A DNA stretch of 64,000 nucleotides, taken from the NCBI RefSeq assembly GCF_026571515.1, contig NW_026861111.1, positions 1 to 64,000 of the forward strand. The letters run 5' to 3'. Made by a program: the position numbers. Below are positions 1 to 62,300 of the stretch, in pieces (within the stretch, counting starts at the first letter, position 1; each line of letters opens with the position of its first letter). The stretch is from Ruditapes philippinarum. Lineage: Eukaryota.

Positions 1-3000
1 TTTTTACATTGTGTTCAGTTTATTAGCTGTATTCCTATAGAAACTATTTACATAAATTAACTTCGTTCTTGTTCGTTAATATGAGTGCCTGATATGATAA
101 TGTTGCCCCCTTAAATCAAAGCTAGATGTGATACATGTACAATGGAATAATGTGTTTACTATTTATTTCTTATATATCTTAGGGGTAAACTTTCATTTTC
201 GATAAAGCAGTAAAAATGAAAAAATCGAATTTGATAATGCATACATAAACAAAATCCATGTTGATGTTTCCTCTGTAATTCCCGTCTCAGATACTTATTC
301 GACTAAGTTCTCCAGCTCTGAATATTCAGCACACGATTGCCGGTTTCAAAGTTTGCCCTCTAGATCCAGAGGAACAGAAAAGGGTTCAAGAAGAAATGGA
401 AAAATGGGAGGACGTTATTGATCAATTGAGAGAAGACGTGACAGGTGTAACAGAAAGGGTTACTGTAGTGGAGGAAACCCAAGAGGAGATCAAAAGACGA
501 CTAGATGAAGGTCTGTTATTCGTTACTTTTGTTCGTATATCAAAGTGAAAATTAAGTAAACGGCATTAGAATGTTGAATGTTAATCCTAAGCAAAATAAT
601 GAGGACATGCTGGAATATATGACATGGTGGCGTGGTGAAATAAAATATCATACTATTCAAAACTGAGCGATTATGACGATGAACTAATGAGATCTATAAT
701 TAATGAGTTACAAAATATCTCTCTTCAATACCTTATCAAATATGTTATTGGAAAATTAAAGAAGTTTTTGCCACTAATATCGCTTACTACAAATTGCTAA
801 AAACGCTAGAGCTTGAATCATCATATTAATCCCATCATATCGAAAATCTGTTTTCATTAATAATCATAAATGGCTTTCAATATCTTGTATCGAAATGTAG
901 AATACTGTTCCTTTCAAAGTTTTGTTAACATGTTTATTTTATTAGTCTCGTACAATTAGAAAATAATAATATCATCAACAATAATCATGGCATAAACGGA
1001 TTACATGATTATCTGTTTGATAACGCAGGTGTGTCTTCTATGCAGACAGAGGAGGAAACATATCAAAAACGCAAGAAGGGTATGTACATATAGCTGCACT
1101 TCTATATCAAACAATAAGTGTAAGTAAATATTAATGAATTTATAAATCATCCAAGAAGTGTGAGTAAATATTGATGTACTTCTATGTCAAGCCAGAACGG
1201 TAAGTTAATATCGCTGTTGTTATAAAGCAAGAATTGTAAGAAAATATTGATTTCCTTCCATATCAAGCAAGAAGGGTAAATATATATATTTATATATATA
1301 TGTCCTGTATCAAGCAAGAAGGTTAGCAATTATTCATCTATATCAATCAAGAAGTGTAAATAAATATGAATGTCCTTCTATATCAAGCAAGAAGGTTAGT
1401 AAATATTTATGTTCTTCTATATCAAGCAAGAATAGTAATTATATAAAGATGTGCTTCTTGATCAAGCAAGAAGGATGAGCTAATATTGACGCACTTTGAT
1501 ATGATGGAAAAAGGGTAAGTAAATTTTAATGTACTTCTATATCAAACAAGTAGTGTAAGTTAATATTGATGTACATCTACATCAAGCAAGAAGGGTCAGT
1601 AGATATTGATGTTCTTTCATATGAGGCAAGAAGTTTAAGTAAATATTGGCTAATTTATGACACACAAAACAGGTAAGTTAATAATGTTGTATTTCTATAT
1701 CAAACAGAAAGGGTGAGTTAATATTGATGTACTTCGATATCAAGCAAAAGGGAAAGTAAATTTTAATGTACTTCTATATCAAATAAGTAATGTGAGTAAA
1801 TATTGATGTACATCTACATCAAGCAAGAAGGGTCAGTAGATATTGATGTACTTCCATATCAAACAAGAAGTGTAAGTAAATATTGTCTTATTTATGTCAA
1901 ACAGAAAGGGTGAGTAAATATTGATATCTTCGATATCAAGCAAAAGGGTAAGTAGATTTTAATGAACTTCTATATCAAACAAATAATTTGAGTAAATATT
2001 GATGTACATCTACATCAAGTAAGAAGGGTCAGTAAATACTGTTGTAATTCTATATCAAACAAGAAGGGTGAGAAAATACGAGGGGTGTCCCAGAATTACG
2101 TGGACTTTTGCTGTAACTTAAAAACTACTGAAAATAAAAACAAACAAAATTAACATGAACAAAATGCAACTTTATTGCATTAGTACAAAAAATTTCAAAG
2201 TTGTCCGTCAACTGGATCAGTGTCTGTGGGCAGGGTAATGAGACAAGGGGTAGCGGGTGCGGGGCAGTCCATTCCGACGTTACGCCGTCATTCCGGTGGC
2301 GTCGCTAGTTGTTAATAAATGCGTGGCGTCGAACGCACAAGATCTCGCGGTAACACCTGACAAATAGACAATTTATCTACTAAGTAAGCGATATTGTACA
2401 TATACTTAATCTGCAAATAATAATAATAATAATAATATAATAATAATAATAAAGCATACTATTAACTTTTGTTACGATAATAGTGTTAAAGACGACGGTG
2501 ATAATGCTGACGCCGTATCATTTTTATTATTCTTTTTATTATTATTATTATCATTATTATTGTGGAGTTTATTTTATAAGCAAAGACAATGTGCGTTAAC
2601 AAGGGAAATAACCTATCATGCGCACTGCTTACTATAGCAGTTTGAGTTCACTTTCTTAAAAGCTGGAGCGGATAAATTGCGTTTAAAATAATAAATTGTG
2701 ATTAGCTTAATTTTCATCAAAGTCATTTTTTTAAACACAAAATTATTGCTTACCCTTCAATAGCACTCAGCAGTGTAACGCCTGTCCCGATCTATGACGT
2801 CCTTGACTTCCTTAATTGACGCCGCAGTCAACGTTGACTTTCTCCCACGACCCTTGCCGTCTTCAATGTCCTCCCGGCCGTCTCGAAAACGCTTATGCCA
2901 CTTGAAAACGAGTGATCGACAAACAGGAGGTCTCACTTTTGCAGTCTCCAACATTTCTTGCGTCTGTGTTGGCGTCTTCCAAAGATTAACACAAAACTTG

Positions 3001-59378: not shown

Positions 59379-62300
59379 ACAAATGATGCATGAAAGTAAA
59401 ACAGAAACTATTGCAGTGGAGTCATACTCTAATGATAAATGTAAAACCTACATATATAAATGTGTATTTCTGTTAGTGTGTAATCAATTTAAGTGATATT
59501 TAACAATTAGGAACCCTGGCAGGAAGCGACCACTTCCTTGGAGTTTTATATCATTAAAATGTCTCTTAATAAAACTAAATTCTTAGTGTTTAACCTCATT
59601 TGACCCTGCTGGAATGCCTGTCTATAGAAAGTTTGGGTTTGTCTTAATATATTTACTACATGAAATTACAAGCAAAAAACAATACTGCCATAAAAAACGA
59701 AAACCCACTTGAATTTTAGAAGGAACGACTGGGCTACCCTTTTTGCTTAAATATTTTAACCAAGTCACACGTTCTTTTAGCCAGGGTTTTTTCTACTTTT
59801 AGTTTCCTTTATGCTCCAAATTTTTTTCTAAACTATTAAGGTTTTGATTTAAAAGAATAAGTGAAAACCCAAATTTTTCCCCCTTCCTTTATTATTAAAA
59901 ATTAAAAAAAGGCATTTTTTTTCCCAAAAAAAAGGAAAACATGATTTTATTTGGGCGGCCAAAAAAATGTTTTAATGGGAAAATTTAATATTTAAATTTT
60001 AAGGGGGTTATGTTTTTTTTCTGATAAAAAATTTTGTTTATTATTTTTTTGTAAAAGGAAATGAAAACCCGGGTAAATTTTTGGGGAACCAAAACAAGAC
60101 CCGTTAAAGGGGTACTATACTGAAAAAGAGGATATTGACACATTGACAAATCTTTTCCAGATAGTACATGTTACGGCACTAGGTAATGATTGTCAGGTAG
60201 TCATGTTAACGGCACTAGGTAAGTGATGTTGTCAGGTAGTCATGTCACGGCACTAGCTAAGTTATATTGTCAGAAAGTCGTGTTTTACACCACTAGGTAA
60301 GTGATATTGTCAGAAAGTCATGTTACAGCACTAGGTAAGTGATGTTGTCAGGTAGTCCATGTCACGGCACTAGCTAAGTTATATTGTCAGATAGTCATGT
60401 TACTGTACTAGGTAAGTGATATTGTCAGATAGTCATGTTACTGTACTAGGTAAGTGATATTGTCAGATAGTCATGTTACTGTACTAGGTAAGTGATATTG
60501 TCAGATAGTCATGTTACTGTACTAGGTAAGTGATATTGTCAGATAGTCATGTTACTGTACTAGGTAAGTGATATTGTCAGATAGTCATGTTACTGTACTA
60601 GGTAAGTGATATTGTCAGATAGTCATGTTACTGTACTAGGTAAGTGATATTGTCAGGTTGTCCTGTTACTGTACTAGGTAAGTGATATTGTCAGGATAGT
60701 CATGTTACTGTACTAGGTAAGTGATATTGTCAGATAGTCATGTTACTGTACTAGGTAAGTGATGTTGTCAGATAGTCATGTTACTGTACTAGGTAAGTGA
60801 TATTGTCAGATAGTCATGTTACTGTACTAGGTAAGTGATATTGTCAGATAGTCATGTTACTGTACTAGGTAAGTGATATTGTCAGATAGTCATGTTACTG
60901 TACTAGGTAAGTGATGTTGTCAGATAGTCATGTTACAGCACTAGTCAGGTAGTCATGTCAAACCACTAGGATAGTGATGTTGTCAGAAAGTCATGTCAAA
61001 CCACTAGGATAGTGATGTTGTCAGGTAGTCATGTCAAACCACTAGGATAGTGATGTTGTCAGAAAGTCATGTCAAACCACTAGGATAGTTATGTTGTCAG
61101 AAGGTCATGTCAAACCACTAGGGTAGTGATGGTGTCAGAAAGTCATGTCAAACCACTAGGGTAGTGATGTTGTCAGATAGTCATGTCACGGCACTAGGTA
61201 AGTGATGCTGTCAGATAGTCATGTCACGGCACTAGGGTAGTGATGTTGTCAGATAGTCATGTTACGGCACTAGGTAAGTTATATTGTCAAGTAGTCTTAT
61301 TAAAGTTCCATATTATTAGGAAAGTATATATTGTCATGTAGTCATATAACACCAATAGGATAGTTATATTATCTTAGCATTGAATAAAATGTCCTTAACA
61401 TAAGTGAAACTCCAAAAGTAGGATTGGTTGCACAATGTCCCCAGAAATTTGTTTTTTAATCTGACATAATTATGTTTCTTTAATAATGATATTTAAGCAC
61501 TGGTTTTGTTTTCCTTTTGTCTTTGTCTATGTAAAAATAAGGCAATTCTGTAGTAGAAAAAGTATTTTTATAAAGGCAACATTAATGCCTCAGAAATGAA
61601 TAGTTTTTTTCCTTCTTTAGAAACATTAAAAAAATCATTTAGAGCATGTAAAAGGTTTATCAATTTATAAAAGTAGCGCTGAGTGTGAAATATTCATAAT
61701 AAATAAGCAAAATGACACTAAATAAAGAATTATTTTAACTTCTACACAAAAACAATAAATACCTGTAATTGAATTTATCGTCAAAGTTAACAGAGGCAAA
61801 AGATGGTCCAGGTAACTGGCCATTATAGTATAGTTGTCTTGAGACCTTAACAGGACATCAAACATAGAGGGCTTGTCAGAAATAAAAACAACTAAACAAA
61901 AAAACATTTCTTTTGCATATTGGGCCTTTAAGTTAGTTTTACAATGTACATTATAGATACATTGTAAATAAATAAGGTAACTTTTTTAACTACATTGTAT
62001 ATTAACCAGTTGTAAATTTTTTTTGCTGCAGGTTTTGGTCCAGATGACATAATGTTGGTTGTATCTAGACATGGTAAAGCTGTATACAAAACAAAGTTAG
62101 ATGTTAAAAACCAAAAGGAAGAACCCGAAGTGTTAATAGATACAGGTAATTTTTGATTTTAAAGTTTTCAAATTAAGGTTTCTATGTTCTTTGTTTGTTG
62201 TTGTTATTAATATTTTGATATTTGTTCAATAAGCTTAAGATACTTTTCAGCAATGTGAATAAACCTGCTAATTAAGGAGTCTCAAATGCCTTAATTATTG

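What the first reader, a model, noticed from the sequence alone, without database searches (positions are those of the whole stretch)
1029..61360. Every gene in the window has a tandem array seeded on its own splice junction
Seen: four sequence-unrelated minisatellites (40, 30, 22 and 38 bp), each with one terminal unit overlapping a real exon boundary and the rest growing into the intron. They are the NLR donor (1060-2076), the lectin acceptor (46722-47150), the EGF acceptor (57470-57603) and the whole microexon (60161-61360). Outside transposons I saw no comparable long minisatellite here. Inference: a mechanism or selective filter amplifies splice-junction sequence directionally into introns in this lineage, supplying duplicated splice sites and raw material for new exons or introns.
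Basis: partly seen in the sequence, partly recalled or inferred. Interest (0 to 1): 0.7.

Follow-up and report, generated by a model that had tools for sequence, protein, structure and literature searches.

The report
Clam intron minisatellites beside splice sites
Four unrelated tandem arrays sit in clam introns, but only one is clearly copied from an exon-intron junction, a kind of minisatellite already known from human genes, so a clam-specific mechanism remains an untested lead.

Summary
All four arrays are real, and their units are unrelated to each other. The window comes from a venerid clam; the best protein hits are Ruditapes philippinarum RefSeq models.

- **Array A (40 bp, 1060-2078):** confirmed as described. 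Its first unit holds the last 20 nt of a conserved 51-nt NLR exon (1029-1079) plus the donor. This matches the known donor-spanning minisatellites of human F7, IFI6 and CBS.
- **Array B (30 bp) and array C (22 bp):** they end 8 nt and 4 nt upstream of a confirmed lectin acceptor and a probable EGF acceptor. They contain no detectable exon sequence (P=0.66 and 0.37), so they are adjacent to the junction, not seeded on it.
- **Array D (38 bp):** the "microexon" has no support from homology. GT is present in 21 of 32 units. The unit resembles a segment of a transposon elsewhere in the window.

Three of four arrays lying within 20 nt of 13 supported junctions is unlikely by chance (P about 2e-5 to 1e-2, depending on the null). 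No clam DNA or RNA could be searched, so the lineage-wide claim is untested. Verdict: partly confirmed; a new member of a known kind plus a lead worth testing.

The parts
291..510 (+). NLR-like gene, coiled-coil exon (acceptor AG at 289-290, donor GT at 511-512)
   Evidence: tblastn of R. philippinarum paralogues, e.g. P0057 residues 153-231 at 63% identity; sequence read
1029..1079 (+). Conserved 51-nt exon of the NLR-like gene (GVSSMQTEEETYQKRKK), entered and left in phase 1. Its last 20 nt form the exonic part of the first 40-bp unit.
   Evidence: tblastn hits from P0057 residues 228-248 and P0005 residues 43-66 (2 of 25 proteins tried). 9 of 16 paralogues printed carry a Y-Q/K-x-x-K/R motif directly before the NACHT exon.
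1060..2078 (+). Array A: 40-bp minisatellite of about 26 units. The first unit spans the exon-intron boundary. 21 of 25 downstream units keep GT and 11 of 25 keep GTRAGT. Higher-order periods of 196 and 237 bp run from about 1335.
2077..3424 (.). Non-autonomous DNA transposon inserted into a unit of array A. It has 45-nt terminal inverted repeats (96% complementary), an apparent TA duplication and an HTH_32-like ORF at 2757-3044 (-). Positions 2360-2404 resemble the D unit.
3427..3510 (+). Degenerate distal units of array A, beyond the transposon
   Evidence: Local-alignment score of 52 against a window mean of 13.4 (sd 2.7); sequence
17115..19540 (+). NACHT exon of the NLR-like gene (acceptor AG at 17113-17114). 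The frame changes near 19296-19318.
   Evidence: Pfam NACHT E=2.8e-09
47703..47885 (-). C-type lectin exon holding the start of the CTLD; donor GT at 47702-47701
   Evidence: P0121 at 82% identity; tblastn; sequence
46728..47150 (-). Array B: 30-bp minisatellite of about 14 units at the 3' end of the 983-nt lectin intron. It ends 8 nt before the exon, and more degenerate units continue to about 47200.
46595..46719 (-). C-type lectin exon (WIGISDDGDEGDWRW). The acceptor AG at 46721-46720 is fixed by the protein continuity MFIK-D-NLLRRIR.
   Evidence: Pfam Lectin_C E=3.1e-04; tblastn of P0121 at 87% identity
57465..57595 (+). Array C: 22-bp minisatellite of 6 units, with degenerate units from 57424. 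It ends 4 nt before the exon.
57600..57752 (+). Single EGF-like exon of 153 nt, phase 1-1; acceptor AG at 57598-57599, donor GT at 57753-57754
   Evidence: Pfam FXa_inhibition E=9.1e-11 and cEGF E=3.8e-07; frame and upstream stop. It is the only EGF-like stretch in the window.
60158..61372 (+). Array D: 38-bp minisatellite of about 32 units. The unit reads CAG + 21 nt + GTAAGT. 11 units are identical to the consensus, and one sub-family has GGATAGT or GGGTAGT in place of GGTAAGT. Exon status is unsupported.

Best explanation
The window holds four independent intronic minisatellites of different standing.

Array A is a donor-spanning minisatellite. A segment of about 40-44 nt, covering the last 16-20 nt of a conserved 51-nt NLR exon and the first 24 nt or so of the following 16-kb intron, was duplicated in tandem. 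Replication slippage or unequal exchange is the inferred cause. It then expanded to more than 25 units, later in blocks of 5-6 units. The array is tolerated because the most upstream donor is used, so every copy is removed with the intron. This is inferred from paralogue proteins and from the human F7 model. Any downstream pseudo-donor would carry the stop codon that lies four codons into the intron.

Arrays B and C are ordinary intronic minisatellites. Their proximal ends lie 8 and 4 nt from acceptors, and they contain no exon sequence.

Array D is a young, still homogeneous minisatellite whose unit happens to carry AG...GTAAGT. Its origin is open: either an unannotated junction or a transposon-related sequence.

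Shown: the arrays, the exon boundaries of A and B, and the exon-derived part of A. Inferred: the duplication mechanism and the silence of the pseudo-sites.
For: - Arrays and their register.
- The exon 1029-1079 is conserved and always directly precedes the NACHT exon in R. philippinarum paralogues. This makes the exon older than the array and gives the direction of copying.
- The exon tail matches the unit at 16 of 16 bases with one gap, P=0.0004.
- The 40 nt further upstream are not unit-like (P=0.85).
- GT is kept in 21 of 25 downstream units.
- Reading through the donor gives ...KRKKGMYI-stop.
- The transposon was inserted into a unit and degenerate units continue beyond it, so the array is old.
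- For B and C the in-register tests are negative, and their units have no parent sequence elsewhere in the window (P=0.80 and 0.65).
- For D, no exon is found by homology, and GT is present in only 21 of 32 units.
- Precedent: passages of PMC1557585 describe minisatellites whose first monomer spans an exon-intron boundary in F7, 6-16, CBS, LMNB2 and PDGF.
Against: - Treating the positions of B and C as coincidence is uncomfortable. Three of four arrays lie within 20 nt of one of 13 junctions, with P=1.8e-5 for the whole window, 5.8e-4 if arrays are confined to about 20 kb of intron, and 5e-4 to 1.4e-2 if all 10 or so arrays are counted.
- In A, the G's at donor positions are better kept than the other G's (44 of 50 against 97 of 148, Fisher P=0.002). 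This could mean selection on the pseudo-sites, although units are not independent.
- Most pseudo-donors (GTAAGT) fit the consensus better than the authentic GTATGT, so their silence is not guaranteed.
- D's GTAAGT on the gene strand has a chance expectation of only about 1-2% per unit (rate).
- No RNA evidence of any kind was available.
Confidence: 0.72

Rival explanations
1. In this clam lineage a mutational process or selective filter preferentially starts minisatellites at splice junctions and lets them grow into introns. Array ends would then be enriched next to splice sites genome-wide and would supply spare splice sites and proto-exons. Possible drivers (my inference): gene-conversion tracts ending at exon borders in expanded immune gene families, or array-associated deletions that stop only at constrained splice signals.
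For: - Three of four arrays end within 20 nt of homology-supported junctions (P from 1.8e-5 to 1.4e-2 depending on the null).
- Two of four units carry GTAAGT on the gene strand, against 0.25-0.34 per kb outside the arrays.
- A small (TATATAAT)4 repeat also abuts the acceptor of the first CTLD-coding lectin exon.
Against: - Only A contains junction sequence; B and C do not.
- D's exon is unsupported and its GT decays.
- Only 3 of the 13 junctions have an array.
- The window was picked out by a reader scanning many windows, so there is a look-elsewhere effect.
- No shared structural driver was found: only A folds better than shuffles (z=-2.0), while B, C and D have z>0.
- My searches found no bivalve report of this.
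Confidence: 0.12
2. Array D is a transposon-derived minisatellite, an amplified internal segment of a DNA-transposon family, and not a splice-junction derivative. Its AG...GTAAGT would then be incidental.
For: The unit aligns at 35 of 44 positions with 2360-2404 inside the TIR element that sits in array A. Only about 1 of 300 shuffled units reached that score anywhere in the window (P=0.003).
Against: - No TIR copy or other part of that element lies near D.
- The matching transposon segment reads AAGTAAGC, not GGTAAGT.
- Three units were tested this way, so the corrected P is about 0.01.
Confidence: 0.3
3. The arrays are kept by selection as splicing regulators. Examples would be tandem U1-binding sites downstream of a 51-nt exon that aid exon definition or protect a 16-kb intron, and AG-poor repeats upstream of acceptors that set branch-point choice.
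For: - Donor-position G's in A are better conserved than other G's (Fisher P=0.002).
- The C consensus unit has no AG.
- Intronic minisatellites have been linked to splicing decisions in C. elegans (passages of PMC4039745) and tandem repeats to splicing variation in humans (abstract start in the listing and passages of PMC10078293).
Against: - Units are not independent, because the array grew by higher-order duplication.
- At the third intron position the A units vary freely, including C and T.
- D loses GT in a whole sub-family.
- There are no functional or RNA data.
Confidence: 0.1
4. Everything is coincidence: the match between A's unit and the exon tail is chance, and the 1029-1079 exon is not real.
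For: The exon is short (17 codons), and only 2 of 25 paralogues gave a tblastn hit to it.
Against: - The peptide is 16 of 17 identical to P0005 and lies in the same position before the NACHT exon in P0057 and P0005.
- Phases fit on both sides.
- The exon-tail match has P=0.0004.
Confidence: 0.03

Closest known systems
Human F7 intron 7 minisatellite (37-bp VNTR)
   Same: The first monomer spans the exon-intron boundary, so the donor is repeated in the intron as pseudo-sites. The unit length is similar (37 against 40 bp). The array lies at the 5' end of the intron (passages of PMC1557585).
   Different: The F7 monomer holds only 4 exon nt and has 5-9 identical copies. Array A holds 16-20 exon nt and more than 25 diverged copies, is interrupted by a transposon, and its authentic donor (GTATGT) is weaker than most pseudo-sites. 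Use of only the first site is shown for F7 and not tested here.
Human IFI6 (6-16), CBS, LMNB2 and PDGF donor-spanning minisatellites
   Same: The same architecture. These genes are listed together as having minisatellites whose first monomer element spans an exon-intron boundary (Introduction of PMC1557585).
   Different: In 6-16 and CBS the two nearest pseudo-sites are used and add residues in frame. In A any pseudo-site would include a stop codon. I did not read the primary papers on these genes.
Intron gain by tandem genomic duplication (Rogers model; Hellsten et al. 2011, PMC3265369; potato RdRp, PMC4974935)
   Same: A tandem duplication that includes splice-signal sequence creates spare splice sites.
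   Different: In those cases the duplication creates a new intron. Here the intron position is shared by paralogues (KRKK|ELKDG), so the intron is older than the array. I saw only the search listing and the start of the abstracts for these papers.
Transposon-derived minisatellites and satellites
   Same: The D unit resembles an internal segment of a TIR element in the window. A review of transposons as a source of tandem repeats was listed (PMC9659126; listing only).
   Different: No transposon termini flank D. A, B and C show no transposon match.
Introner-like elements
   Same: They are intron-associated repeats that carry splice signals.
   Different: Introners are one dispersed family found in many introns. 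The four units here are unrelated to each other and are tandem, not dispersed. The description of introners is from my own recall; I read no paper on them.

Membership tests
Donor-spanning intronic minisatellite (F7 IVS7 / IFI6 / CBS type) | Tandem array of 10-100-bp monomers at the 5' end of an intron | tested here: met
   Array A: period 40, 25.5 copies, starting at the donor of intron 1080-17114. This feature does not apply to B and C, which lie at 3' ends of introns.
Donor-spanning intronic minisatellite (F7 IVS7 / IFI6 / CBS type) | First monomer contains the end of the exon plus the donor | tested here: met
   For A: exon tail 1060-1079 matches unit positions 1-16 at 16 of 16 with one 4-nt gap, P=0.0004. 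The exon is supported by paralogues.
Donor-spanning intronic minisatellite (F7 IVS7 / IFI6 / CBS type) | Donor sequence repeated in the downstream monomers (pseudo-sites) | tested here: met
   GT is kept in 21 of 25 units and GTRAGT in 11 of 25.
Donor-spanning intronic minisatellite (F7 IVS7 / IFI6 / CBS type) | Authentic upstream site used; pseudo-sites silent or used only rarely | not testable with these tools
   No RNA data. Indirect evidence only: paralogue proteins join KRKK to ELKDG, and read-through meets a stop after 4 codons.
Donor-spanning intronic minisatellite (F7 IVS7 / IFI6 / CBS type) | Copy-number polymorphism (VNTR) | not testable with these tools
   Only one haplotype is available.
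   The next unit-length stretch scored against the consensus gives P=0.66 for B and P=0.37 for C. The arrays end 8 and 4 nt before the exons.
   No homologue covers it. Only phase 1 is open, reading DSHVTVL. No RNA data.
Intron gain by tandem duplication | The intron is absent from relatives and is bounded by the two duplicate copies | tested here: not met
   The same exon junction appears in paralogue proteins, at protein level only.
Transposon-derived minisatellite (for D) | Unit homologous to an internal transposon segment, and array flanked by the rest of the element | tested here: inconclusive
   The unit matches 2360-2404 at 35 of 44 positions, P=0.003. No termini or other parts of the element lie near D.
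Introner-like element | One sequence family present in many introns | tested here: not met
   The four units are unrelated in all 6 pairwise tests.

The most novel reading that the evidence does not exclude
In venerid clams the birth or survival of minisatellites is coupled to splice junctions. One possible cause is recombination or gene-conversion tracts ending at exon borders in hugely expanded immune gene families such as NLRs, C-type lectins and EGF proteins. Another is array-associated deletions that stop only at constrained splice signals. Either would leave non-TE array ends enriched within about 10-20 nt of splice sites genome-wide, and would make arrays like A and D a standing supply of pseudo-splice sites and proto-microexons.
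Probability: 0.12. Interest if true: 0.75.

Novelty: new member of a known kind. Interest (0 to 1): 0.35.

Why it matters
Array A adds an invertebrate example, in a clam NLR gene, to a class so far described in a handful of human genes. It has unusually many and unusually strong pseudo-donors behind a weaker authentic donor. That makes it a natural test of how the spliceosome chooses the first of many tandem 5' splice sites.

Three arrays hug splice sites in one 64-kb window. If that pattern holds genome-wide, it would point to an unrecognised link between exon borders and tandem-repeat formation, with consequences for intron growth, cryptic splicing and exon birth. If it does not hold, the window is simply a repeat-rich stretch of a repeat-rich genome.

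Tried and rejected
- **Homologues of the EGF exon.** A word-index search of longer proteins found nothing. A full HMMER search found 2297 proteins at E<=0.001, none above 51% identity among the 150 listed. tblastn of those 150 against the window hit only 57521-57823, plus one weak hit at 57868-57912. No further exons of that gene, and no support for the D microexon, could be obtained.
- **Parent sequences for the B and C units** elsewhere in the window: none.
- **A common hairpin driver.** Only A folds better than shuffles (z=-2.0); B, C and D do not.
- **RNA genes in the arrays.** Rfam gave 0 matches and ARAGORN 0 tRNAs.
- **Transposon context for D.** blastn of the TIR element against the window gave only one weak 48-nt hit away from D, there were no extra TIR copies, and no convincing inverted repeats lie around D.
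- **A visual resemblance between the EGF exon donor and the D unit** was rejected: local score 13, at background level.
- **Pfam on the remaining ORFs near the lectin and EGF regions** gave nothing beyond a retroelement protease.
- **Literature.** No bivalve report of junction-associated minisatellites appeared in the 6 papers holding all four terms or in the 12 listed of 192. No genome-wide enrichment study appeared among the 13 papers. The passages of PMC10078293 shown did not address distance to splice sites.

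
Full report
**What the window is.** It has no N and is AT-rich, with 28-45% GC. The 725-codon open frame at 17114-19291 carries a NACHT domain (Pfam E=2.8e-09). It finds 219 proteins at E<=1e-10, and almost all of the best 120 are RefSeq models of the clams Ruditapes philippinarum and Mercenaria mercenaria. Identity is 75% over the full length at best, and 89% over half the length for P0057. The window is therefore from a venerid clam, and the gene is a member of a very large NLR-like family. 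I did not try to identify the record. All protein searches were made exon by exon. I did not build or search a joined (spliced) model, so full-length protein comparisons are left out.

**The arrays are real.** In stacked alignments each array fades into degenerate units at its far end. The four units are unrelated to each other: 6 of 6 pairwise tests are non-significant, the lowest being A against D at P=0.06, and those two share only GGTAAGT. They are not the only long arrays. About 6 kb of 143-164-bp satellites lie at 25385-31499, and a palindromic cluster of 22-bp arrays lies at 44053-44316. I did not show either to be a transposon.

**Array A is seeded on a real donor.**
- I ran tblastn with 25 paralogues against the window. 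P0057 places its residues 153-231 on 288-515, residues 228-248 on 1022-1084, and residues 247-606 on 17114-18193. P0005 places residues 43-66 on 1028-1087, followed directly by the NACHT exon. The other 23 proteins gave no hit to this very short exon.
- Among the 16 paralogues whose pre-NACHT regions I printed, 9 end that region with a Y-Q/K-x-x-K/R motif directly before ELKDG/ELKAG/ELQHG/DLRDS. P0005 reads GVSSMQTEEEKYQKRKK, against the window's GVSSMQTEEETYQKRKK.
- The splice signals fit: AG at 1027-1028, exon 1029-1079, GT at 1080-1081, and AG at 17113-17114. All three junctions, including the upstream donor at 510|511, are in phase 1.
- The last 20 nt of the exon (1060-1079) equal unit positions 1-16 with one 4-nt gap and no mismatch. 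Only 0.04% of 5000 random window segments scored as well.
- The 40 nt further upstream are not unit-like (P=0.85).

The exon is shared by paralogues and the array is not part of it.

**Anatomy of A.**
- Among the 25 units downstream of the junction unit, 21 keep GT and 11 keep GTRAGT.
- Mean identity to the consensus is 83%.
- From about 1335 onward there are higher-order periods of 196 and 237 bp, so later growth was by blocks of 5-6 units.
- A 1.35-kb element with 45-nt terminal inverted repeats (96% complementary), an apparent TA duplication and an HTH_32-like ORF sits inside a unit. Two to three degenerate units follow it at 3427-3510. The array therefore predates that insertion.
- Reading through the authentic donor gives KRKKGMYI-stop, and the unit length of 40 nt is not a multiple of three. 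Any pseudo-donor would therefore give a truncated or decay-prone message.
- The authentic donor is GTATGT, while most pseudo-sites are GTAAGT or GTGAGT.
- G's at donor positions are better kept than other G's: 44 of 50 against 97 of 148, Fisher P=0.002. Units are not independent, so I do not read this as proof of selection.

**Array B abuts a confirmed acceptor but is not made from it.** The 102-codon frame at 47590-47898(-) finds one longer protein, P0121, a 202-aa R. philippinarum C-type lectin, at 82% identity. tblastn lays P0121 on 49181-49146 (weak), 47934-47689, 46729-46592 and 46274-46104. The protein continuity MFIK-D-NLLRRIR fixes the donor (exon end 47703, GT at 47702-47701) and the acceptor (AG at 46721-46720, exon start 46719). 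The last full unit ends at 46728, followed by TTTGACAG and then the exon. The next 30 nt score no better against the unit than random sequence does (P=0.66). The unit has no other match in the window (P=0.80).

**Array C abuts a probable acceptor, with the same caveat.** The exon 57600-57752 is a phase 1-1 EGF module (FXa_inhibition E=9.1e-11). An in-frame stop at 57590-57592 and the sequence cataattttcag make 57599|57600 the likely acceptor. The array ends at 57595. The next 22 nt are not significantly unit-like (P=0.37). No close homologue exists in the databases searched, and this is the only EGF-like stretch in the window. The rest of that gene is unknown.

**Array D: the microexon is a conjecture.**
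- The unit reads CAG + 21 nt + GTAAGT, and the first unit follows a good pyrimidine tract.
- Only phase 1 is open (DSHVTVL). That happens to be the phase in which the EGF exon ends.
- Nothing else supports an exon.
- Of 32 units, 21 have both AG and GT, and a sub-family of 6-8 units reads GGATAGT or GGGTAGT. GT is thus among the less conserved positions (23 of 30).
- Eleven units are identical to the consensus, so the array is young or still being homogenised.
- Unexpectedly, the unit aligns at 35 of 44 positions with 2360-2404 inside the transposon that interrupts array A. About 1 of 300 shuffled units did as well anywhere in the window (P=0.003). No other part of that element lies near D.
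- The sequence just upstream of D (58001-59000 and 59501-60120) has abnormally long homopolymer runs, averaging 1.86-2.05 against a window mean of 1.45. It looks like unpolished assembly.

**Is the closeness to junctions more than chance?** I used 13 homology-supported exon edges. Arrays A, B and C have an end 19, 8 and 4 nt from one of them; D is 2.4 kb away.
- Random placement of the four arrays in the window gave three or more within 20 nt in 3 of 200,000 trials (binomial 1.8e-5).
- Confining arrays to about 20 kb of intron gives 5.8e-4.
- Counting all 10 or so arrays in the window gives 5e-4, or 1.4e-2 if those are also confined to intron.

The 20-nt threshold and the window itself were chosen after the fact, so these figures overstate the case. 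Even so, the pattern is unusual enough to be worth a genome-wide test. I could not run that test. No RNA data are available either. Orthologous introns therefore stayed unchecked.

[quoted passage not shown] Its examples are human F7 (37 bp, with 4 exon nt plus 33 intron nt), 6-16/IFI6 (25 pseudo-sites), CBS, LAMIN B2 and PDGF. It also shows for F7 that only the most upstream site is used. Intron creation by tandem duplication (PMC3265369 and PMC4974935; listing and start of abstracts only) is related but does not apply here, because A's intron position is shared by paralogues. My searches found no bivalve report and no genome-wide enrichment study.

**Verdict.** There are four real arrays, three of them next to real or probable splice sites, but only one overlaps an exon boundary and is built from junction sequence. 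The lineage-wide mechanism is untested. A is a new member of a known kind.

Noticed in passing
window 58001-59000 and 59501-60120: Homopolymer-inflated, stuttering sequence: mean run length is 1.86-2.05 against a window mean of 1.45 (sd 0.11). It looks like unpolished long-read consensus and lies just upstream of array D.
   Followed up: partly
window 19296-19318: The NACHT reading frame changes here. Paralogues continue in another frame to about 19520-19544. This could be a frameshift (pseudogene), an assembly indel or a very short intron.
   Followed up: no
window 2077-3424: A DNA transposon with 45-nt terminal inverted repeats, an apparent TA duplication and an HTH_32-like ORF, inserted into a unit of array A. 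It also carries (AAT)n and (TAT)n tracts that form an internal palindrome.
   Followed up: partly
window about 12000-15700 (-): A degraded LTR-type retroelement inside the 16-kb NLR intron. It shows aspartyl protease, reverse transcriptase and RNase H matches in several broken frames.
   Followed up: partly
window 25385-31499: About 6 kb of adjacent satellites with periods of 164, 143, 106 and 151 bp and 75-91% matches, lying between the NLR and lectin genes. Their nature, transposon-borne or not, was not examined.
   Followed up: no
window 44053-44316; also 5335-5385: Three adjacent 21-22-bp arrays, with the later arrays apparently the reverse complement of the first (a foldback-like structure). 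A related unit occurs at 5335-5385, which suggests a dispersed element.
   Followed up: no
window 43292-43341: A perfect two-copy 25-bp tandem duplication whose unit ends in an acceptor-like TTTTCAATCAACAG|G. No exon is known there.
   Followed up: no
window 47892-47923: A small (TATATAAT)4 repeat ends about 6 nt from the acceptor of the first CTLD-coding lectin exon, 47885. This is a fourth, minor case of a repeat next to a splice site.
   Followed up: no
window 50853-51495 and 53210-53902: Two near-identical segments about 2.36 kb apart; several ORF translations are the same in both. This is either a tandem segmental duplication or two transposon copies.
   Followed up: no
window 46420-46560, 50245-50540, 63859-63999: Copies of a short dispersed repeat that translates as ...MDPDQPAH.RSLIR..., in both orientations, including one in the lectin intron next to array B.
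   Followed up: no
proteins P0006, P0009, P0020 (R. philippinarum paralogues): The coiled-coil region before the KRKK exon contains runs of roughly 11-residue repeats of the DVKENVTEVKK type, in varying number. These are coding tandem repeats in the same gene family.
   Followed up: no
window 45148-45381 (-) and 44396-44686 (-): Open frames encoding a Thr-rich stalk plus a hydrophobic segment, and a basic, Tyr-motif-rich tail. They lie downstream of the lectin exons and have no Pfam match. They could be further exons or a separate gene.
   Followed up: partly
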